Source of the DNA: an uncultured archaeon
GTDB taxonomy: Archaea > Hadarchaeota > Hadarchaeia > Hadarchaeales > WYZ-LMO6
NCBI GenBank assembly: GCA_938074535.1
Contig: CALJER010000017.1
Location: 314 to 64,313 of the forward strand
DNA: 64,000 bases
Direction of reading: 5' to 3'
Numbering within the stretch: the stretch's first letter is position 1; each line of letters begins with the position of its first letter. This document shows, piece after piece, positions 15,696 through 22,918 of the stretch. A model generated the notes under the pieces. It made no database searches. It saw nothing but the letters and a program-made list of their open reading frames with translations, and was not told where the DNA came from. Position numbers and translations under genes: made by a program.

Positions 15696-16294
15696 CCCTT
15701 TTTCCCCCCGCATCCCCCCGAGGCCGGGCAGGAGGTGCACCTCTTCCTCCTGCAGTACTCCAGGCCGAGCCTGACCAGCCTGGGCTCCAGCCCCTTCATC
15801 CTCCCCTCCCCCCTTATGCCCAGCCTTCCCGCCACCTCCCTCGCCAGAGGAGAAAGAGGGGGATCGGCCTTCTCCCAGATTCCCCTGAGCTCCCTGAGGA
15901 AGATGCAGGCGGTGGTGGGGCCTATTCCCCTGAACTCCTGAAGCTTCCTCATGAGGTCCTCAGGGTCGGCGGCCGAAGCGTGAAGCCTCTCCAATCCGCC
16001 CTCCTCCTTCAGCCTCCTGCAGATCTCCAGCAGCCTGTCGGCGGTGGAGAAGTCGTAGCGGACGTAGCCCCCCTCGTCCAGGGCCCTGACCAGCCTGGCC
16101 CATCCGGCCTCCAGTATCCTCCCCGGGCTGGTGTATCCCCTGCGCTCGAACTCCCTGAAGGTCCGGAGGGCTATCCCCGCGGAGATCCTTCTGCCAAAGA
16201 GGAGGGAGGCCAGGAACCACTTGAACCTGTCGCCCGGCTTCCTCAGGTCGAGGCCCAGCTCCTCGGGATAGCTCCTGAGGGGCACCCGAGCCAT
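15692..16294 (-). CDS. HhH DNA-glycosylase-like protein with C-terminal 4-Cys motif
   Basis: WFLASLLFGRRIS, YVRYD, FRGIGPTTACIFLRE, CRRKRCTSCPASGGC. Confidence 0.65.
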   Translation of the reverse strand: MARVPLRSYPEELGLDLRKPGDRFKWFLASLLFGRRISAGIALRTFREFERRGYTSPGRILEAGWARLVRALDEGGYVRYDFSTADRLLEICRRLKEEGGLERLHASAADPEDLMRKLQEFRGIGPTTACIFLRELRGIWEKADPPLSPLAREVAGRLGIRGEGRMKGLEPRLVRLGLEYCRRKRCTSCPASGGCGGKKG

Positions 16295-16354
16295 ACCGGA
16301 CCTCATCCTTTCCAGTGGGAAAACTGTGGAAAAAAGGGGAGGGGGTGAGAAACC

Positions 16355-17218
16355 TCACCCCGAAACGCTCTGGATCAGCTCGGGCATCGCCACCTGCTCG
16401 GCCTGTAGGTGAATCGTCTTCATGGTGACGCCGGTCATGGTGATGGTGGGCAGCAGATGCTTTGAAATGCTCACGATCCACGGGACCGAGCTCCCCCTCC
16501 ACTCCAGGGGTAGCAGACCTATCGCCTTCCCCTTCACGTAGGTGGTGTAAAGGAGAGCGTTCTTCATCTCGATCCTTGGAGAGGACATCACGTAGGAACC
16601 CGCGGACATGGTGACTCCCTTGGTGCTCATGCCACCCGCCTGAATCTTGGTGGCCTTGACACCGCTGTAGGTGGTCCCCACGATGTCGTAGCTGGACATG
16701 GTGCTGGAGCTGGCCTTCACCTCCACCTCGGAGGGGAAGGTTTTTGACAGGAAACCCTGGACGGAAACATTGGTTCCGCGGAGATACAGGGCGTGCATGA
16801 TCACCCTGGGCAACGTGGCCGGATCCCCCAGCGCCTCCTTGAGGGTGAAGACCCTCCCGGTGTAGGGATCCTTCAGGCCCAGCGGCACTTGGTCTCCCGT
16901 CCAGGAGATCCCCCCGCCCCATGCTCCCACGTACACCGCATAGATGCTCACGTTCTCCCACACCAGCTTGGATGCCGTGAGCTCGAAGCCGCTCTGGTAC
17001 ATCCCCGTCACTTCCATGCGCTGGGCGGTGATGAGGGTGCAGGGAATTCCGTTGTAGCTGGATGGAACCATCTCCCACCCCCACATCTTCACTTCGCTCG
17101 CCGTGACCAGATAGCACGCTGTTCCCTGGGCCAGAGCCCCTCCCGCGAAAAGCGTGGAGAGCGGGACCAGGGCCAGCACTAAGCATAGCCCGGTCGAAAC
17201 CGATTTCACCGGAACCAC
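16355..17218 (-). CDS. Exported beta-rich protein with two internal repeats
   Basis: Signal peptide ending ALA; repeats YNGIPCTLITA / YSGVKATKIQA homologous to C-domain of 18883-19767. Confidence 0.75.
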   Translation of the reverse strand: MVPVKSVSTGLCLVLALVPLSTLFAGGALAQGTACYLVTASEVKMWGWEMVPSSYNGIPCTLITAQRMEVTGMYQSGFELTASKLVWENVSIYAVYVGAWGGGISWTGDQVPLGLKDPYTGRVFTLKEALGDPATLPRVIMHALYLRGTNVSVQGFLSKTFPSEVEVKASSSTMSSYDIVGTTYSGVKATKIQAGGMSTKGVTMSAGSYVMSSPRIEMKNALLYTTYVKGKAIGLLPLEWRGSSVPWIVSISKHLLPTITMTGVTMKTIHLQAEQVAMPELIQSVSG

Positions 17219-17222
17219 TTCC

Positions 17223-17735
17223 TCACACTATCTGGATGTAGGCCTTCATGTTGTCGATGGTGATGGTGGCCAGGGACTGCTTGATCACCTTGGCGCTCAG
17301 GTTTTCCATCTGCGCGCTGCCTGCCAGCACGTAGACTCCCTCGGGTATGTCCCTCCCCTCCATGGACATGTTGTTCATGATGGCTTTGCCCGCATTGATC
17401 TGGGTAGCCGTCATCGAGAGACCGCTGCCCGCGGCCGCGTCTCCCAGAATCCAGGCTCTCACCGTGGCCCCTCCCAGGTTGAACTCCCGGAGAATCTTCA
17501 TCTTCTGGATATTGACGGTCTTCATCTCCGTTACCAGCACGGGTTCTATGAGTCCCCCCTGGACTATCGTGGAGCCGTACATCTTCATGTTGTCACCGAC
17601 CACCTTCTCTGCCGTCAAATCGAAGGTGTACCCTGGGAGGCCGAAGACGATGCCCATCGAGAGGCTCAGCACCAGTATCCCCACCATCGAACCCACTCCT
17701 GCCACCGAAGCTGCCAAGAAGACTCCTTTCCTCAT
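17223..17735 (-). CDS. Exported beta-rich protein, DUF6230-like
   Basis: Hydrophobic N-terminus, FDLTAEKVVGDNMKMYG...PVLVT; ATG overlaps upstream TGA. Confidence 0.65.
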   Translation of the reverse strand: MRKGVFLAASVAGVGSMVGILVLSLSMGIVFGLPGYTFDLTAEKVVGDNMKMYGSTIVQGGLIEPVLVTEMKTVNIQKMKILREFNLGGATVRAWILGDAAAGSGLSMTATQINAGKAIMNNMSMEGRDIPEGVYVLAGSAQMENLSAKVIKQSLATITIDNMKAYIQIV

Positions 17736-18886
17736 TCCTTCACCTCTGGGTGTTCTTCGCCGTGGATCGGGGCTCGACCGCTCTCCGGGGTTGCGGGTTT
17801 TTCTCCCCTCCTCTCCACCGACGAGCGCAAGAGGGAATGAATCCTGCCCACCGCCTCCTCCAGCCCACCGCCCCCACCCCTCCTCTCCGTCTGGGCGGGG
17901 AGAACACCCTCCTCCAGGGGTGGGACTTTCTCCTCGCGCCGAACGGGTTCCTCTACTAGGGAGGGGGCCTGCGAAAGCGAGGGGGGCTGCCAGGCCAGGG
18001 CGTGGGCCCCGGCCACGATGGTGAAGAGGGAGGCGAAGACCTCCCCCACCGGCATGGAGAAGAAGGAAACGACGCCCACGACGATGAACACCACCCCTAT
18101 GATGGAGGTGAGGCGGTCCGAACGGAGCCAGAGCATGGCCCCTGCCAGCCCCATGGTGAGGAGGGCCAGGAGAGGGGTGAGGAAGAGGTCGGGGTGGCGG
18201 AGGTAGAGCTGGCCCGGCACCACCCTGCAGGAGGTGAGGATCCAGGCCCCTCCCAGGAAGGCGAACAATATGGCCCAGAAGGGCCACCTCTCCCTGAAGC
18301 GCCTGAGGGAGGAGAGGGAGTTCAGGAAGAAGGGGACGGAGAGGCAGAGAAGGACGAAGAAAAGCAGCCTGAGCAGGCCGCTGGACAGGTACCAGGCCGC
18401 GGCCAGCCCCACCGAGGGGAGGGCCGTGAGCCCCTCCCTGAGGGTGAGGTGGGGCCTGCTTAACTTCACCTCGGGCATGGCCCAGGTGAAGGCCAGGAGA
18501 AAGAAGAGACTCGCGAAGAGGGCTATGCCCAAGGGGGAGCGGGCGAAGAGGAAGAGGGAACCCAGCCCCGGAATCACCCTGTCCACCTTTCCCACCACCG
18601 CGCTCTTTGGCACCGCCCAGGGATCTGGATCGGGATTGGCGTCCCCCTTGGTGGTGAGGGTCTCCTCCCCCACGGAGAGCACCCGGTGACAGATGTTTCT
18701 GTAGACCACCACGTCGCCCTCCCTTATCTCTCCCGCAGGCTTCAGGAGGACCAAATCCCCGTTGGAGATGGAGGGCTCCATGGACCCGCCCTGCATCACG
18801 TACACCCTTCCCTTCAGCAGGAGGGGGACCGCCAGCAGGAGGGAGAAAAAGAGCAGTATCACCGGCAGGAGCTTTCTCAGGCTCAA
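17732..18886 (-). CDS. SipW/ER-type signal peptidase I fused to DUF6114-like membrane domain
   Basis: GGSMEP, GDVVVY..ICHRV, TKGDAN..D; then RERWPFWA...GGAWIL...GAHALAWQP and a Pro/Glu-rich tail. Confidence 0.8.
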   Translation of the reverse strand: MSLRKLLPVILLFFSLLLAVPLLLKGRVYVMQGGSMEPSISNGDLVLLKPAGEIREGDVVVYRNICHRVLSVGEETLTTKGDANPDPDPWAVPKSAVVGKVDRVIPGLGSLFLFARSPLGIALFASLFFLLAFTWAMPEVKLSRPHLTLREGLTALPSVGLAAAWYLSSGLLRLLFFVLLCLSVPFFLNSLSSLRRFRERWPFWAILFAFLGGAWILTSCRVVPGQLYLRHPDLFLTPLLALLTMGLAGAMLWLRSDRLTSIIGVVFIVVGVVSFFSMPVGEVFASLFTIVAGAHALAWQPPSLSQAPSLVEEPVRREEKVPPLEEGVLPAQTERRGGGGGLEEAVGRIHSLLRSSVERRGEKPATPESGRAPIHGEEHPEVKE

Positions 18887-19767
18887 CCCATCTCCACCCC
18901 CCTGAGCGTGATTCTACCCCCCTCCATCGAGACCATGTGCATGGTGACGTCGGAGAAGGTGGTGGGGTTTCCCAGGAGCCCCACCGTCCAGGGTGGAGAG
19001 CTCCCTCCCTTCCAGCCGGACTGTACGCGCATGCCGAAGGCGCTGCCCGTCCCCCTCATGTAGGTGACGTAGGCCTGGAGGTTCTCCACCTCCATGGAGG
19101 AGGCCCACAGCCCCAGCCCCCCTCCCGCCATCTCCTGCCCGGAGATCCTGGCCTTCCTGGCCGTGATGCGGGTGCAGGGCACCCCCTGGTACTCCACCGG
19201 CCCCTCGATGTCATAGTCCCAGAGGGTGACCTTCCCCACCTTCACCCCGTACTCACCGGCGGCCGTGGGGGGTTCGGGTGGCGGCGGCATCGCCATCATC
19301 ACGACCGCCGGTGAGACGAGGAACCAGACCCCCAGAACGATGATGAGAAAAACCGCAACGATGAAGACGGAGAGGAAGGCGTAACGCAGACCGAGCATGA
19401 AGGAGGAGGGAAGGGAGAAGACGATCATGAGGAAGACCAGAAAACCGACCAGGGGCCAGAGAGACCAGGAGGGGAGGCGGGAGAAGAGAACGAGCAGGAG
19501 GATGAGGGAGGAGAGCGCGAGGTCGAAGATCAGCCTGTGCCTGTTCACCCTCATCCAGAGGGAAACGTTGAAGCCGAAGAACTTCGCCCACACCCTGGAG
19601 GGGACAAGCCTCAACCGCTGGAGCCTCCTCTCCTCCTCGGGCGGCGTGGGAGGAGGTACCTTCTCCGGGGGTGGCGGGGGGGGTCTTCCCTCTATCCTCC
19701 GCAGGAGCTCTTCTCTCCACGCCTCCCGGTTCTCAGGGTGTTTCCCCCAGGTCCCCAGACCGCCCAA
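18883..19767 (-). CDS. Membrane protein (3 TM) with Pro linker and external beta-rich domain
   Basis: Pro-rich N-terminus, 3 hydrophobic helices, PPPPEPP linker, YQGVPCTRITA domain. Confidence 0.72.
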   Translation of the reverse strand: MGGLGTWGKHPENREAWREELLRRIEGRPPPPPPEKVPPPTPPEEERRLQRLRLVPSRVWAKFFGFNVSLWMRVNRHRLIFDLALSSLILLLVLFSRLPSWSLWPLVGFLVFLMIVFSLPSSFMLGLRYAFLSVFIVAVFLIIVLGVWFLVSPAVVMMAMPPPPEPPTAAGEYGVKVGKVTLWDYDIEGPVEYQGVPCTRITARKARISGQEMAGGGLGLWASSMEVENLQAYVTYMRGTGSAFGMRVQSGWKGGSSPPWTVGLLGNPTTFSDVTMHMVSMEGGRITLRGVEMG

Positions 19768-19935
19768 CCTTCACCCGCCCCATCTGGCTTGATCCAGCCG
19801 CTGCGTCTCGGAGAGGGATTTCAAGAGGTCCGGTAAAAGCGACTACTGAAGTTTGTTCTGGAAGATTGTTCGGTGGAAACCCACCCCAACGAGCCCCTGC
19901 TCTATCCCCTAGGCTCCCGCTCCCACAGTCTGGGA

Positions 19936-20748
19936 CTAGTAGAGAGCCTGAGCACCTGCCGCATCACCCGGCTCCAGGGAAACCTTGCAGGTCTCCCCGA
20001 AGTCCGCATAACCGTACATGGTCATGGCCCAGTAACACTCATCATAGAGGTCGTCGAGACCCGTGACGTGACCCGCCTCGTGGGTTGCTATGTTCTGGAG
20101 ATCGAAGGCACCGATAAGCGTATATCCAGAACCCTCACCGTCCCGGTCTATCCCCCAGCGGTAGTAGGAGTTGAACACCATATCCGCGTCCACCAGCTCT
20201 CCCGTATCCGTGAGGTACCAAAGGTAGGTTACCGCCACCACCCCCTTCTTCAATCTGCCCCATGTCACCACGTTCTTATAGTCGGGGCGCCTGGTGCTTG
20301 CGCTGGCGAACCTGTCCGTGGTGACCCTGTGGTCGTACAGCTCCACCTCCACCGCCTCGTCCCAGTTCTCGAAGGCCCTCCGGATGGCTCCCACCACCTC
20401 ACCTTCCTTCAACCCGTAGGATCTTACTGCCAGGGTGGGATTCACCACGTAAGGAACACCCTTGGGGTATCTGGAAAGATCCCACCACACCCCTAGGAGC
20501 GCGTAGGCATCCGGATTACCATCGTTATCAGGATCCCCTATTCCCACCACCTCCCCCTGAGCCGAGATCTTTTCCTCCCCCGCATAGCGGATGAGGATCA
20601 ATCTGCTCAGCTTCCCGAAGTGGTCCACAACCTTCCGCTTTCCCTCCCACTCCCCTGGGAAGAGGTCTTCCTCCGGAGGAACAGCCAGAACGGGGGAAGA
20701 GAGAGCCAGGAGGAGGAAAAAAACCAGCGGCAAAGCCAGAACCCTCAT
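19936..20748 (-). CDS. Secreted metzincin (matrixin-like) zinc metalloprotease
   Basis: Signal peptide; DADMVFN, HEAGHVTGLDD, Met-turn MTMYG. Confidence 0.82.
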   Translation of the reverse strand: MRVLALPLVFFLLLALSSPVLAVPPEEDLFPGEWEGKRKVVDHFGKLSRLILIRYAGEEKISAQGEVVGIGDPDNDGNPDAYALLGVWWDLSRYPKGVPYVVNPTLAVRSYGLKEGEVVGAIRRAFENWDEAVEVELYDHRVTTDRFASASTRRPDYKNVVTWGRLKKGVVAVTYLWYLTDTGELVDADMVFNSYYRWGIDRDGEGSGYTLIGAFDLQNIATHEAGHVTGLDDLYDECYWAMTMYGYADFGETCKVSLEPGDAAGAQALY

Positions 20749-21080
20749 TGGAGAAACCTTCAGTGGGGGTAGTTATAAAGTTATGGTAAGCCGTGTTTCC
20801 TCTGAGTATCACTTTTTCATTGTCAGACCTCCAAGCGCCCTCACCCTGCGCTCGTACCTCACGGAAACGTCCGGGACCGGGAAGAGATGCTCCTCACCCT
20901 CGTGTGTGGAAAGCCCCACGTGCAGGACGGGCTTCACCAGACCCTCGGCAATCTTGGCCAGACCCTCCATCTTCTCCACCCGAGCCCCGGGATAAAGGCG
21001 CCCACTGAAAACAGTTCTGGCGCCTTCTTCTGGCGCTAACTCCAGTTCTCCTTTAAGCCATCCCTCACACCAGCTTCTCC

Positions 21081-21335
21081 GTGCCCGGACTCGAGGACTC
21101 CTTCGAGGAGATCAAGAGGAGGCTGGGGGGAAAGTGGGGTGAGGAACTGGCGGAGGAGATCCTCGGGATCCTGAGCGACGGGACCCCGCACTCCCTCACG
21201 GAGCTGGCGGAGCTCACGAAGGCCTCCAGGGAGAGCATAAAGGCCGTGCTGAAGCTGCTGGAGGAGACGGGTTTCGTAGAGAGGGAGTACCGGTTGACGG
21301 AGTTCGGAAAAAGGACGCTGGTCTCCCAGGAGTAG
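21081..21335 (+). CDS. Small winged-helix protein
   Basis: HSLTELAELT...VLKLLEETGFV...YRLTEFG. Confidence 0.55.
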   Translation: MPGLEDSFEEIKRRLGGKWGEELAEEILGILSDGTPHSLTELAELTKASRESIKAVLKLLEETGFVEREYRLTEFGKRTLVSQE

Positions 21336-21336
21336 C

Positions 21337-21600
21337 TCAGCAGAACATCCTCCTTAGCTCCCTGAGCTTCCGCAGCACCCTCCTTCCTTCCTCCGTGATG
21401 CAGTAGACCCTCCGCGAGCTCTCCCCACCATTGAATTTCATCTCCAGCAGCCCCCTCCCCATCAGCTCGTCGATGTACTTCTGGGCCAGCCCGAAGCCCA
21501 AGTTGGTCTTGTAAGCTATCCCCGTCTTCGTCATCCCCCCCAGACCGGCCAGCTCCAGAATCTCCCCTATGATCTCCAGTCTGTTCCTTCTCCCCTTCAT
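21337..21600 (-). CDS. Archaeal wHTH regulator (COG3432-like)
   Basis: RRNRLEIIGEIL, KTGIAYKTNL, YCITEEGR. Confidence 0.8.
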   Translation of the reverse strand: MKGRRNRLEIIGEILELAGLGGMTKTGIAYKTNLGFGLAQKYIDELMGRGLLEMKFNGGESSRRVYCITEEGRRVLRKLRELRRMFC

Positions 21601-21805
21601 GCGCTTTTGCCGTTTTCACACCCCCATCCTAAAAATGGCCCGTGGTCCTTTCCCCCCACACCGTCACACGGTGACCCTTTTTCGAAACATCCTTCCCTTT
21701 TCGTCCCTCAACCTTCCCCCATCCTCCCTGCTTCTTTCCGCTTTTCTTGTGTGATACCAAATTGTTTAAATATGGTGGCGAGGAAGAAATAAGCGGGATC
21801 AGGGG

Positions 21806-22891
21806 ATGAAGGTGGGGGGTCCTAAACACCTACCCATAGGGGCATATCTACCCGGCAGGAAGATCGTCGAGTACCTCGTTCTGACCGAAGACCCTGTGAG
21901 CACCCTCGCAGAAATCACCTGGAGGGCCAAGGAAAAGGGAGTGGAAATCGTGGCGGGGAACCTCACCGCCGAACCCCGATCCCCCCTCAGGCACTTCTCC
22001 TTCTTCGCCGACCTCACCCACTCCGAGACCACGCCCGAGGAGCTGGAGAAGGAACTTGCCAAGGTGGAGGGGGTGAAGGAGGTCTTCTCCCAGCCGGGAA
22101 CCTCCGAGGGCCTGCTGGTGGACAGGCTGCACTTCCCCCTGATGGTGATGGAGGAGAGGGCCATCACCCTCAGGGTGGAGACCTTCGGGGACCTCCTGCA
22201 GAACCTCAACCAGGTGGAGAGCAACAAGCTCTCCTTCTTCAGGCTGGGGGTGAAAGCGGGGCTGAGAAAGGCCAGGAAGGTCTCCCAGCTGGGGCTGAGC
22301 GGGGCACAGGCCCTGGAGCTGGTCCTCACCGAGAGGATAGCGAAGGGCTGGGGTTTCCCCTCCATCAAGAAGTTCAACGGGGAAACGGTGGAGGTGGAGA
22401 TGCAGGACCTCTTCGAGTGCCTGCCCTTCAGGGGGAAGGGAAAGGAGAGCAGGAGCCAGTTCTTCCGGGGCTACCTCTCTGGCCTGGTATCCGGCCTGAT
22501 TGGAAAGGAGGTGATCATGGAGGAAACGAAGTGCATAGCCAAGGGAGACAGAAGCTGCTACTTCGCCTCCATCCCTGGCCCCCTCTCCGAGGTGGGCACC
22601 AAGCCAAGCGAGACCCCCCAGGTGAGGGAGGAGCTTTTCGCCACGGTGAAGGAGATCTTCGGGGAAGAACTGAAGTTCAAGGCCCTGAAGTTCCTGGCCA
22701 GGAAGGGGGTGGCCTCCATCAGGGAGATCGCCAGGAAGATCAACATCGCCCCCAAGAACCTCACCCGCCACCTGGAGCACCTCCTGCAGAAGGGAGTGAT
22801 AGAAACCGTCTACAGCGGGAAGAACATCAAGCTCTACAGGCTCTCCCCAAAGGCGGAGGTGCTGGGGAAGTTCCTGCGCAGCGATCTCTGA
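21806..22891 (+). CDS. ACT-like + V4R + C-terminal ArsR-type HTH protein
   Basis: KGWG, LFEC, FFRGYLSG, ETKCIAKGDRSCYF (V4R); SIREIARKINIAPKNLTRHLEHL (HTH). Confidence 0.78.
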   Translation: MKVGGPKHLPIGAYLPGRKIVEYLVLTEDPVSTLAEITWRAKEKGVEIVAGNLTAEPRSPLRHFSFFADLTHSETTPEELEKELAKVEGVKEVFSQPGTSEGLLVDRLHFPLMVMEERAITLRVETFGDLLQNLNQVESNKLSFFRLGVKAGLRKARKVSQLGLSGAQALELVLTERIAKGWGFPSIKKFNGETVEVEMQDLFECLPFRGKGKESRSQFFRGYLSGLVSGLIGKEVIMEETKCIAKGDRSCYFASIPGPLSEVGTKPSETPQVREELFATVKEIFGEELKFKALKFLARKGVASIREIARKINIAPKNLTRHLEHLLQKGVIETVYSGKNIKLYRLSPKAEVLGKFLRSDL

Positions 22892-22918
22892 CCCTTTTTA
22901 ACCGGGAAGAGTAAGGGA

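What the first reader, a model, noticed from the sequence alone, without database searches (positions are those of the whole stretch)
16355..19767. Four-gene export module: dedicated SipW-type peptidase-DUF6114 fusion plus three beta-rich exported proteins, a candidate new surface fibre or lipid-handling system
Seen: four minus-strand genes joined by TTGA and ATGA overlaps and a 4-bp gap. They encode a membrane-anchored beta-domain protein, a Ser-His signal peptidase fused to a multi-TM domain, a DUF6230-like exported protein and a two-repeat exported protein. Known: operons with their own SipW-type peptidase (Bacillus tapA-sipW-tasA, archaeal bundling pili) build extracellular filaments. From memory, DUF6230 and DUF6114 form an uncharacterised gene cluster in Actinobacteria. 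Inference: the peptidase fusion links DUF6114 to processing or anchoring of these subunits, which suggests an undescribed polymer with anchor, major and tip/minor subunits. A lipid-binding beta-groove conduit is the alternative.
Basis: partly seen in the sequence, partly recalled or inferred. Interest (0 to 1): 0.85.

Follow-up and report, generated by a model that had tools for sequence, protein, structure and literature searches.

The report
Archaeal peptidase-linked surface beta-protein module
A heat-loving archaeon from an alkane-eating lineage carries a swappable four-gene set: a membrane protein fused to its own signal peptidase, plus three exported proteins with an unsolved beta fold whose only studied bacterial relatives are switched on by long-chain alkanes.

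Summary
Four overlapping minus-strand genes (16355-19767) encode:
- A: a three-TM anchor plus one beta domain.
- B: archaeal signal peptidase I fused to DUF6114.
- C: a DUF6230-like protein.
- D: a two-repeat protein.

New here:
- A's beta domain is the same ~125-aa domain as D's two repeats. It has no Pfam model, gave 19 credible hits among 1.84 billion representatives, and is remotely DUF6230-like.
- Both AlphaFold models are confident and built of very long strands. Neither has a convincing PDB match; weak Lpt-like hits recur.
- The genome has other signal peptidases and a paralogous cluster without the peptidase.
- The same A-B-C-D order recurs in two metagenome contigs and partly in one relative. 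A variant cassette fills the same site in another relative, and two relatives have an empty site.
- The only studied DUF6230 proteins, Geobacillus P21/P16, are alkane-induced, leader-cleaved and recovered in the membrane fraction.
- The host encodes MCR-type genes and belongs to a Hadarchaeales family in which all six genomes do.

Best reading (0.4): a surface assembly matured by its own peptidase that captures hydrophobic substrates. A fibre remains a live rival. Function is untested.

The parts
18883..19767 (-). Gene A (294 aa): cytoplasmic Pro-rich N-terminus, three hydrophobic stretches, Pro-rich linker, one extracellular 'AD' beta domain (residues 167-294, nt 18886-19269)
   Evidence: ORF and translation. 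Hydropathy. AD-domain HMM hit 3e-43. blastp to both halves of D. Orthologues at 70-90% identity in L027, L030, L035 and P0033.
17732..18886 (-). Gene B (384 aa): N-terminal anchor plus archaeal signal peptidase I domain (residues 13-129, nt 18500-18850), about seven further hydrophobic stretches including DUF6114 (residues 195-300, nt 17987-18304), and a charged C-terminal tail of about 80 aa
   Evidence: TIGR02228 68.6 bits against cut-off 51.85. PF19609 31.9 bits against 27.9, and 35.9 bits. Ser35, His67 and Asp82 kept. Hydropathy. Three full-length orthologues at 79-83% identity carry both Pfam domains.
17223..17735 (-). Gene C (170 aa): hydrophobic N-terminal leader (about 3-38), then a DUF6230-like long-strand beta domain
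   Evidence: PF19741 23.8 bits, below the 27.5 cut-off. Orthologues P0012 and P0013 carry PF19741. Atlas: 23 of 30 hits share PF19741. AF2 model pLDDT 77.8, pTM 0.73.
16355..17218 (-). Gene D (287 aa): signal peptide (about 1-31, ...ALA/QG), then two AD domains (residues 30-159, nt 16742-17131; residues 159-284, nt 16367-16744)
   Evidence: Translation. Domain HMM hits 3e-40 and 8e-39. AF2 model pLDDT 88.1, pTM 0.81. No Pfam or NCBIfam family.
19936..20748 (-). Exported matrixin-like (Peptidase_M10) protein, 168 bases upstream of A. It lies in the same strain-variable island; membership in the module is unproven.
   Evidence: PF00413 31.5 bits against cut-off 24. Adjacent to A in L027, L030, L035 and L036. 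Missing together with the cluster at the syntenic site of G001 and G004.
21337..22891 (.). Two regulators inside the same variable island: HTH_45 winged-helix protein (21337-21600, minus) and V4R + winged-helix protein (21806-22891, plus). A link to the module is unproven.
   Evidence: Pfam HTH_45 70.7 bits; V4R 37.8 bits plus HTH_24. Both are absent at the empty site of G001. G004 keeps only a V4R C-terminal remnant.

Best explanation
The four genes form one strain-variable envelope module.

B is a polytopic DUF6114 membrane platform that carries its own archaeal-type signal peptidase I on the outer face. C (DUF6230-like) and D (two 'AD' domains) are made with N-terminal hydrophobic leaders. 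After Sec export, B's peptidase domain cleaves those leaders at the platform. A stays in the membrane through three helices and displays a single AD domain outside, to which C docks.

All three products are built from one superfamily of amphipathic, Met- and Thr-rich, very long-stranded beta domains. I propose that they make a cell-surface assembly that captures hydrophobic substrates, most likely long-chain alkanes or lipids, and hands them over. This would be the archaeal counterpart of the alkane-induced P21/P16 proteins of Geobacillus.

Shown: gene layout, domains, catalytic residues, paralogy, synteny and cassette variability, predicted folds.
Inferred: co-transcription, topology, cleavage by B, the A-C contact, and the hydrophobic ligand.
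For: 1. Layout and domains. The gene starts and stops overlap, which suggests the genes are translated together. B combines a signal peptidase above its cut-off, with Ser/His/Asp intact, and a DUF6114 above its cut-off.

2. The peptidase is an extra copy. The own genome gives 4 of 4 scored TIGR02228 hits; C44 is also above the cut-off.

3. The DUF6114 + DUF6230-like pairing recurs in four layouts.
- Window: A-B-C-D.
- C16 paralogue: up114, AntTM-DUF6114, DUF6230-like, beta184. It is conserved at 52-90% identity in G002-G005.
- G002 variant: A, 157-aa hybrid, AntTM-DUF6114, DUF6230-like.
- G023: 150-aa hybrid, AntTM-DUF6114, three DUF6230-like genes.

4. One fold family.
- hhalign of the C family against the AD domain gives 72% probability, E 3.5e-5, over 41 columns.
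- Hybrid proteins hit both HMMs.
- P0026's AD domain gives a weak PF19741 hit.
- Both AF2 models show N-terminal helices followed by strands of 18-28 residues.

5. Experimental precedent, from passages read in PMC2676291. Geobacillus P21 and P16 are induced transcriptionally by long-chain alkanes, are recovered in the insoluble/membrane fraction, and have had leaders of 38 and 45 residues removed.
- PMC10867098 places the P21 orthologue GK2770 beside the alkane monooxygenase GK2771, and describes its AlphaFold model as a large beta-barrel with an N-terminal helix.
- The Atlas cluster nearest to C is auto-named 'P21' (score 0.96, 85% PF19741, Bacillota).
- By eye, the mature P21 N-terminus and a C-terminal P21 peptide share the x-P...F-x-[IL]-x-A and S-x-x-[ST]-ITI-x-x-MK patterns of C.

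6. Weak fold hints. Lpt lipid-groove jellyrolls recur in both lists:
- D: LptD 3.6, LptC 3.5, LptA 3.5, LptF/G 3.5 and 3.3.
- C: LptG Z 4.3 (rmsd 2.4, 57 aa), LptC 3.7, LptA 3.4, 3.3 and 3.0.

7. Composition. Met is 5.1-7.2% in the three beta parts against 1.9% in 1019 crude gene calls; only 8 of those 1019 reach 5%.

8. Host. G000 has MCR beta and gamma and two truncated MCR alpha genes. MCR_beta is in 7 of 66 Hadarchaeota genomes (all 6 of family f1 plus G048). The AD domain is in 5 of 66, all in f1.

9. A-C contact. Complex prediction gave 'weak support': score 0.56, best of 3 controls 0.00.
- The mark was reached by 58 of 80 solved complexes and 2 of 110 mismatched pairs. At 0.60 or under it was reached by only 7 of those 80, and by both mismatches that passed.
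- The runs agree in at least 94% of contacts, and the partner's pLDDT is at least 86.
- My own alignments were used.

10. Extracellular context. Elsewhere the AD domain sits behind the archaeal type IV pilin N-terminus (P0025, P0035) and beside CARDB, Big_1, PPC and TSP3 domains.
Against: - No ligand, cavity or groove was seen. The tools gave me no coordinates.
- All Lpt hits are below the noise level the tool states (Z under 8).
- The link from C to P21 rests on an automatic cluster name, a sub-threshold Pfam hit and peptide patterns compared by eye. I could not fetch the P21 sequence.
- In Geobacillus no knock-out exists, and the authors say so.
- The co-distribution with MCR is confounded by descent (one family) and is imperfect. 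G001 (92% complete) and G048 (79%) have MCR but no module. G023 (87%) has a DUF6114/DUF6230 cluster but no MCR.
- Whether these MCR genes are alkyl-CoM reductases was not tested here.
- No transporter or ATPase lies in the cluster.
- DUF6230 is widespread in Actinomycetota and Bacillota, so a general envelope role is as plausible as an alkane role.
- The beta-oxidation genes near the C16 paralogue (3-hydroxyacyl-CoA dehydrogenase, thiolase) are not kept next to it in the family-level relative L033.
- The A-C prediction is only a weak pass.
Confidence: 0.4

Rival explanations
1. Surface fibre or sheath. After cleavage by B, C and/or D polymerise by strand addition or strand exchange, with A as the membrane anchor. 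This would resemble tapA-sipW-tasA or archaeal bundling pili. The role would be structural or adhesive rather than ligand transfer.
For: - A dedicated signal peptidase lies in the operon.
- Several same-fold paralogues sit beside a membrane-anchored one.
- Mature P21 and P16 are abundant and insoluble although their leaders are removed.
- The strands are long and amphipathic, with a free hydrophobic face in the single-domain proteins.
- The predicted A-C contact has weak support: 0.56 against 0.00 in controls, with the counts as given under the best explanation.
- The strain-variable cassette fits an exposed, abundant surface structure.
Against: - No TasA/camelysin or pilin family was found in A-D.
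- No fibre subunit appears in the fold lists shown, though absence from a list is not exclusion.
- In other archaea the AD domain is a passenger behind a type IV pilin N-terminus or beside adhesin-type domains. That looks like a displayed module rather than a self-polymerising subunit.
- No homo-oligomer was modelled.
- The conserved C16 paralogue works without a peptidase fusion.
Confidence: 0.25
2. Variable surface adhesin or decoy set. The beta domains bind other cells, minerals or viruses. The cassette swapping reflects an arms race with viruses, and the link to hydrophobic substrates is coincidental.
For: - The site holds different cassettes or none. A-B-C-D is in G000, L035 and L036, with A-B in G003. 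A variant set is in G002. The site is empty in G001 and G004.
- In hot-spring runs one 3,646-letter contig spans exactly 16352-19873. The flanks lie on other contigs, and there are loose ends at 16282 and 19819.
- The domain partners CARDB, Big_1, PPC and TSP3 are typical of adhesins.
Against: - No defence or phage family matched A-D: 0 PADLOC hits for the four, and only two marginal S24-type PHROG hits for B.
- This reading does not explain the conserved DUF6114 platform.
- It does not explain the alkane induction of the bacterial relatives.
Confidence: 0.15
3. Lpt-like continuous conduit. A, C and D join edge to edge into a bridge with a continuous hydrophobic groove running from the membrane to the outer envelope layer, and move lipids or alkanes along it.
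For: - Lpt jellyroll proteins recur in both weak fold lists.
- The set has one membrane-anchored and two soluble members of one fold.
- The A-C contact has weak support: 0.56 against 0.00, counts as above.
Against: - All Z values are 4.3 or lower.
- No ABC ATPase or other energy source lies in or next to the cluster.
- The envelope architecture of these archaea is unknown to me.
- No groove was inspected.
Confidence: 0.1
4. The genes are neighbours without a common function, and B is merely a second housekeeping peptidase.
For: None beyond the lack of any experiment.
Against: - The gene junctions overlap.
- The same order recurs in L035 and L036 at about 79% identity.
- The DUF6114 + DUF6230 pairing recurs in four layouts.
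- A and D share one domain.
Confidence: 0.03

Closest known systems
Geobacillus thermoleovorans B23 P21 and P16 (orthologues GK2770 and GK3040 of G. kaustophilus), most likely DUF6230 members
   Same: - About 200-aa proteins with a long hydrophobic leader that is removed.
- The rest is all-beta: 'large beta-barrel with N-terminal helix'.
- Recovered with membranes.
- The Atlas cluster nearest to C is named P21 and is 85% PF19741.
- N-terminal and C-terminal sequence patterns are shared by eye.
   Different: - They are bacterial.
- No peptidase-DUF6114 fusion or AD-domain partner is reported in the passages I read.
- The Geobacillus gene neighbourhood could not be inspected here.
- Their function is itself unproven (no knock-out).
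- C scores below Pfam's DUF6230 cut-off.
Bacillus tapA-sipW-tasA and archaeal bundling pili (recalled, not retrieved here)
   Same: An operon-encoded extra signal peptidase of the Ser/His (archaeal/ER) type lies next to exported beta-rich substrates and an anchoring protein.
   Different: - B scores 38.3 bits against the SipW equivalog cut-off of 190.
- The peptidase is fused to an eight-helix DUF6114 membrane protein.
- The substrates have no TasA/camelysin family or fold match.
- Polymerisation is not shown.
Lpt lipopolysaccharide bridge (LptC/LptA/LptD N-terminus, LptF/G jellyrolls)
   Same: One anchored and several soluble copies of one beta fold. Lpt proteins recur in the weak fold lists of both models.
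   Different: Z is only 3.0-4.3. The strands are two to three times longer. There is no ABC transporter. The host is an archaeon with no outer membrane known to me.
DUF6230-DUF6114 gene pair as annotated in Actinomycetota
   Same: The same two Pfam families lie side by side.
   Different: Here DUF6114 is fused to a signal peptidase or to a three-helix 'AntTM' domain, and the set is joined by a new AD domain. The actinobacterial synteny could not be checked.

Membership tests
Archaeal signal peptidase I (TIGR02228; peptidase S26B type) | Score above the curated cut-off | tested here: met
   68.6 bits against 51.85, residues 13-129; 70.6 bits in the genome search.
Archaeal signal peptidase I (TIGR02228; peptidase S26B type) | Catalytic Ser (box B), His (box D, HR[VI]) and the conserved Asp of GD[AS]. 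The residue roles are recalled knowledge. | tested here: met
   GGS35MEP, H67RV and GD82AN, aligned with the genome's other peptidases. The paralogue C23b lacks the Ser.
Archaeal signal peptidase I (TIGR02228; peptidase S26B type) | N-terminal membrane anchor that places the catalytic domain outside | tested here: met
   Hydrophobic stretch 1-31, preceded by R4 and K5. The orientation is inferred.
SipW (NF046067 equivalog) | Score above the curated cut-off | tested here: not met
   38.3 bits against a cut-off of 190. B works like a SipW-type dedicated peptidase but is not a SipW orthologue.
DUF6114 (PF19609) | Score above the gathering cut-off | tested here: met
   31.9 bits against 27.9; 35.9 bits. 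The paralogue on C16 scores 46.8 bits.
DUF6230 (PF19741) | Score above the gathering cut-off | tested here: inconclusive
   C itself scores 23.8 bits against 27.5. Its 87% and 79% identical orthologues carry the precomputed hit. 23 of 30 Atlas hits share the family.
TasA/camelysin or donor-strand filament subunits | Family or fold match of the exported subunits | tested here: inconclusive
   No Pfam or NCBIfam hit. None appears in the rows shown by Foldseek or VIA.
TasA/camelysin or donor-strand filament subunits | Self-polymerisation | not tested
No homo-oligomer was modelled.
Lpt/OstA-type lipid-groove jellyroll | Clear structural match | tested here: inconclusive
   Best Z is 4.3 (LptG, rmsd 2.4, 57 aa) for C and 3.6 for D. 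Both are below the tool's noise guide of about 8.
Lpt/OstA-type lipid-groove jellyroll | Partner ABC transporter that powers transfer | tested here: not met
   No ABC domain in A-D or in the six neighbours scanned.
Archaeal type IV pilin-like proteins (Pilin_N, PF07790) | Pilin_N N-terminus on the window's proteins | tested here: not met
   No hit in A-D. The domain is present on the AD-domain relatives P0025 (43.1 bits) and P0035 (40.6 bits).

The most novel reading that the evidence does not exclude
The module is the first candidate apparatus by which alkane-oxidising archaea seize long-chain alkanes at the cell surface and pass them to the membrane. It is built from a previously unsolved long-strand beta fold (DUF6230 plus the new AD domain). 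It is matured by a signal peptidase fused to its own DUF6114 platform. It is shared in principle with alkane-induced P21/P16 of Geobacillus and with the DUF6230-DUF6114 pairs of Actinomycetota.
Probability: 0.25. Interest if true: 0.9.

Novelty: new variant of a known kind. Interest (0 to 1): 0.66.

Why it matters
- DUF6230 and DUF6114 have no described function. One full-text search for both names found a single passing mention.
- The peptidase fusion is the first mechanistic clue for DUF6114. It ties that family to leader removal from DUF6230-type proteins. This fits the N-terminal processing measured for P21 and P16.
- The AD domain adds an unmodelled extracellular domain with a confidently predicted fold that has no solved counterpart.
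- How archaea that activate long-chain alkanes with MCR-type enzymes get hold of an insoluble substrate was not addressed in the two Hadarchaeota culture papers, as far as six search terms show. This module gives a concrete, testable candidate.
- The cassette-like variability of the site is a useful marker of surface exposure.

Tried and rejected
Searches that gave nothing useful:
- A profile of the C family against PDB sequences gave only two chance-level hits, E 0.08-0.1.
- tblastn of C against 72,556 plasmids, meant as a route to annotated actinobacterial neighbourhoods, gave one E=3 hit.
- A word-index search with the C-family profile reached only Hadarchaeales relatives: 12 proteins.
- The genome-contig scan with the DUF6114 alignment returned 5 loci. 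Four were Hadarchaeota or Hadesarchaea. The fifth matched only the peptidase domain.

So the actinobacterial DUF6230-DUF6114 synteny stays untested.

Metagenome scan with B: 28 of the 30 loci matched only B's peptidase domain, at 29-45% identity, and 27 of these 28 have 66-73% GC. In the 9 of them that I inspected, the neighbours were TasA-like proteins carrying '...GSGATFTS...' leaders and about 600-aa proteins. None of the 28 had a DUF6230-like or DUF6114-like hit with my HMMs. These are ordinary SipW-type clusters and not relatives of this module.

Defence or phage origin: no PADLOC hit for A-D. There were only two marginal S24-type PHROG hits for B.

Fold lists: TasA, bundling-pilus, thread and type V pilus subunits do not appear in the rows shown. 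This is not exclusion.

Beta-oxidation neighbourhood of the C16 paralogue: not conserved in L033, so I dropped it as evidence.

Rows dropped before a count: of the 22 representative-library hits to D, I judged three (P0020, P0023, P0029) by eye to be low-complexity repeat proteins and left them out. That leaves 19.

Expression: no RNA holder is listed. Two runs labelled metatranscriptomic are marked 'probably DNA' and are kept as contigs. In one of them (X2) the contig over A, B and part of C has a word depth like the flanks, whereas in the other three runs it is about 10-25 times lower. Contig depth cannot rank genes, so I draw nothing from it.

Because of this the organisms behind P0015-P0035 are unknown. 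Paper supplements were closed. Expression tables of the two Hadarchaeota culture papers may bear on this claim and were not seen.

Full report
**Observation.** The window's minus strand carries four consecutive ORFs:
- A: 18883-19767, 294 aa.
- B: 17732-18886, 384 aa.
- C: 17223-17735, 170 aa.
- D: 16355-17218, 287 aa.

Read directly in the sequence, A's stop and B's TTG start overlap as TTGA, B's stop and C's ATG overlap as ATGA, and four bases separate C from D.

B passes the archaeal signal peptidase I model (TIGR02228, 68.6 bits, cut-off 51.85, residues 13-129) and Pfam DUF6114 (31.9 bits, cut-off 27.9, residues 195-300). It is far below the SipW equivalog cut-off (38.3 against 190). Ser35, His67 and Asp82 are in place when B is aligned with the genome's other peptidases.

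C matches DUF6230 just below the cut-off (23.8 against 27.5 bits). A and D have no family. A Kyte-Doolittle scan gives three hydrophobic stretches in A, about eight in B, and one N-terminal stretch each in C and D.

**One domain family in A, D and, remotely, C.** A 168-290 aligns to both halves of D (E 2.6e-13 and 1.7e-11). An exhaustive HMMER search with D over 1.84 billion representatives found only 22 proteins at E<=0.001. I set three aside by eye as low-complexity repeats. In the remaining 19 plus A and D, the ~125-aa 'AD' domain occurs once, twice, four or six times.

Relatives place the domain in these contexts:
- behind an archaeal type IV pilin N-terminus (P0025, P0035);
- beside CARDB, Big_1, PPC or TSP3 repeats;
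- behind the same three-helix 'AntTM' N-terminus as A (P0034).

Evidence that AD and DUF6230 are related:
- A profile-profile comparison of the C family with the AD domain gives 72% probability, E 3.5e-5, over 41 columns.
- Short proteins in relatives hit both HMMs.
- One AD domain gives a weak PF19741 hit.

I take AD and DUF6230 to be one superfamily. This is likely but not proven.

**Predicted folds.** The AlphaFold2 models are confident:
- D: pLDDT 88.1, pTM 0.81.
- C: pLDDT 77.8, pTM 0.73.

Each has an N-terminal helix followed by a meander of strands 18-28 residues long.

Fold searches found nothing convincing:
- Foldseek's best row for D (E 9.7e-4) has TM about 0.1. For C there was no row at E<=0.001.
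- The full VIA scan of 48,161 chains peaks at Z 3.8 for D and 4.3 for C. That is below the level the tool calls meaningful.
- In both lists the Lpt lipid-groove jellyrolls (LptA, C, D, F, G) recur. This is a hint only.

The three beta parts contain 5.1-7.2% Met against 1.9% in 1019 crude gene calls of this genome. I had no coordinates and could not inspect a groove or cavity.

**The peptidase is not housekeeping, and the module has paralogues.** The genome has three further TIGR02228 hits, one of them above the cut-off (C44). On contig C16 lies a second cluster:
- a 114-aa cytoplasmic protein;
- a 328-aa AntTM + DUF6114 protein without a peptidase domain;
- a DUF6230-like protein;
- a 184-aa beta protein.

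This cluster is conserved at 52-90% identity in G002-G005. A third stand-alone D-like gene sits on C37.

**Synteny and variability.** B has three full-length relatives at 79-83% identity that carry both domains. Comparing the syntenic site across sources:
- Two metagenome contigs (L035, L036) hold matrixin, A, B, C, D, the HhH-like gene and malQ in the window's order.
- G003 holds matrixin, A and B at a contig end, and a D fragment at another contig end next to the HhH-like gene.
- G002 has, at the same site between the same flanks, A followed by a 157-aa hybrid, an AntTM-DUF6114 protein without peptidase, and a different DUF6230-like gene.
- In G001 the HhH-like gene is followed directly by the triosephosphate isomerase gene. 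In G004 only a C-terminal remnant of the V4R regulator lies between them. In both, the module, the matrixin and the two regulators are missing.
- In four hot-spring runs of one study, a 3,646-letter contig covers exactly 16352-19873. The flanks are on other contigs, and loose ends at 16282 and 19819 run into unlike sequence.

The site therefore holds exchangeable cassettes. G023, in another family, has a fourth layout: a 150-aa hybrid, AntTM-DUF6114 and three DUF6230-like genes.

**Distribution in the phylum.** Among 66 species genomes of the phylum:
- The AD domain is in 5 (G000, G002-G005).
- DUF6114 above the cut-off is in 6 (the same five plus G023).
- MCR_beta is in 7 (G000-G005 and G048).

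G000 has MCR beta and gamma on C53 and two MCR alpha N-termini cut by contig ends. The overlap is striking, but it rests on one family. It has exceptions both ways: G001 and G048 have MCR only, and G023 has a module only.

The names of close homologues place the genome in Candidatus Hadarchaeales. Two papers report thermophilic Hadarchaeota growing on long-chain alkanes. I saw them as search listings with abstract starts. In them, six search terms about uptake, transporters and surface structures returned a single passage, and it was unrelated.

**What is known about the families.** A full-text search for DUF6230 or DUF6114 found one paper, which lists a DUF6230 gene as a moderately expressed Streptomyces promoter source.

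The Atlas cluster nearest to C is auto-named 'P21' (0.96; 85% PF19741; Bacillota). It is followed by DUF6230 clusters of Actinomycetota and Thermoproteota. That led to Kato et al. 2009 (PMC2676291, passages read):
- P21 and P16 of Geobacillus thermoleovorans B23 rise with long-chain alkanes at the transcript level.
- They are found in the insoluble fraction.
- They start after leaders of 38 and 45 residues.
- Their N-termini resemble those of the Streptomyces lavendulae 'cholesterol esterase'.
- Knock-outs failed.

A 2024 paper (PMC10867098, passages read) places the P21 orthologue GK2770 next to the alkane monooxygenase GK2771 in an alkane/beta-oxidation cluster. It calls the AlphaFold models large beta-barrels with an N-terminal helix.

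By eye, the mature P21 N-terminus and one internal peptide share sequence patterns with C, just after C's leader and at C's C-terminus. I could not fetch P21 itself.

**Mechanism proposed.**
- Shown: layout, domains, catalytic residues.
- Inferred, step 1: B sits N-in with the peptidase outside, DUF6114 forming the last four helices, and an 80-aa tail inside.
- Inferred, step 2: C and D are exported and lose their leaders at B. For D the site is after ...ALA; for C it is just before L-P-G-Y-T-F, by analogy with P21.
- Inferred, step 3: A remains anchored and shows one AD domain outside.
- Inferred, step 4: single-domain A and C pair up.

On step 4, the one complex job gave 'weak support':
- Score 0.56, best of 3 controls 0.00.
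- The mark was reached by 58 of 80 solved complexes and 2 of 110 mismatched pairs. At 0.60 or under it was reached by only 7 of the 80, and by both mismatches that passed.
- The runs agree in at least 94% of contacts, and the partner's pLDDT is at least 86.
- My own alignments were used.

The most likely job of the assembly is to bind hydrophobic substrates at the cell surface. A fibre or sheath, a variable adhesin set, and an Lpt-like bridge are not excluded.

**Comparison and novelty.**
- The peptidase domain is a member of the archaeal SPase I family.
- DUF6114 membership is met. DUF6230 membership of C is borderline.
- SipW, TasA, Lpt and pilin memberships are not met or are inconclusive.
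- The kind of system, a dedicated signal peptidase beside its exported substrates, is known. The peptidase-DUF6114 fusion, the AD domain, the fold and the cassette behaviour are new variants of it.
- No defence or phage family matched A-D.

**Verdict.** Confidence in the best explanation is 0.4, and interest is 0.66.

Noticed in passing
G000 contig C16:8291-10703 (L005, L012, L085): A paralogous four-gene cluster: a 114-aa cytoplasmic protein, AntTM + DUF6114 (328 aa, no peptidase), a DUF6230-like protein (163 aa), and a beta protein (184 aa). It is conserved at 52-90% identity in G002-G005. A 3-hydroxyacyl-CoA dehydrogenase lies 1.7 kb upstream and a thiolase 7 kb upstream on the other strand, but not in the family-level relative L033.
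   Followed up: yes
G000 contig C37:3665-4489 (L018, L026): A third, stand-alone D-like gene with two AD domains (286 aa), with no cluster partners on its 5.6-kb contig. Similar lone genes occur in G002, G003 and G005.
   Followed up: partly
window 16307-22918 compared with G001:C22 (L087) and G004:C180 (L088): The module, the matrixin and both regulators are missing in two same-genus genomes. In G001 the HhH-like gene abuts the triosephosphate isomerase gene. G004 keeps only residues 299-361 of the V4R regulator, which points to deletion rather than insertion.
   Followed up: yes
window 21806-22891 (+) and 21337-21600 (-): A V4R + winged-helix regulator and an HTH_45 regulator lie inside the variable island. 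From memory, Pfam describes V4R as a small-molecule, possibly hydrocarbon-binding, domain. A regulatory link to the module was not tested.
   Followed up: no
G000 C53:1-3668 and C21:28927-29298: MCR beta, MCR gamma and two MCR alpha N-terminal pieces, both cut by contig ends. The MCR alpha genes in relatives also sit at contig ends, so these paralogues seem to break assemblies. Whether they are alkyl-CoM reductases was not tested.
   Followed up: partly
window 17873-17985 (B's C-terminal tail): In the hot-spring contigs, 111 bases of B's cytoplasmic tail are replaced by 132 other letters. In the protein alignment the tail is the least conserved part of B, apart from a shared G-G-L-E-x-A-V motif that is also present in G002's DUF6114 protein.
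   Followed up: no
L027:11309-13210 (G002) and L028:3427-5334 (G003): A 633-635-aa protein with a signal peptidase domain in its middle (residues about 263-407) lies 2-3 kb upstream of gene A in two relatives. No counterpart was found in G000 by the TIGR02228 search.
   Followed up: no
G000 C23:16192-16383: One of two adjacent small signal-peptidase paralogues lacks the catalytic Ser in the alignment (G in its place), so it is probably inactive.
   Followed up: no
L086 (G023:C64:449-8191): The DUF6114/DUF6230 cluster of this 45% GC Hadarchaeon is flanked by two CheY-like response-regulator genes. It also includes a 196-aa repeat-domain protein and a 106-aa small membrane protein.
   Followed up: partly
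L014 (G005:C7:18132-18998): the genome search reported two TAA stops inside the D-like match, yet my ORF scan found an intact 279-aa two-domain ORF at L023:8163-9002. The stops probably lie in the flanks of the match.
   Followed up: partly
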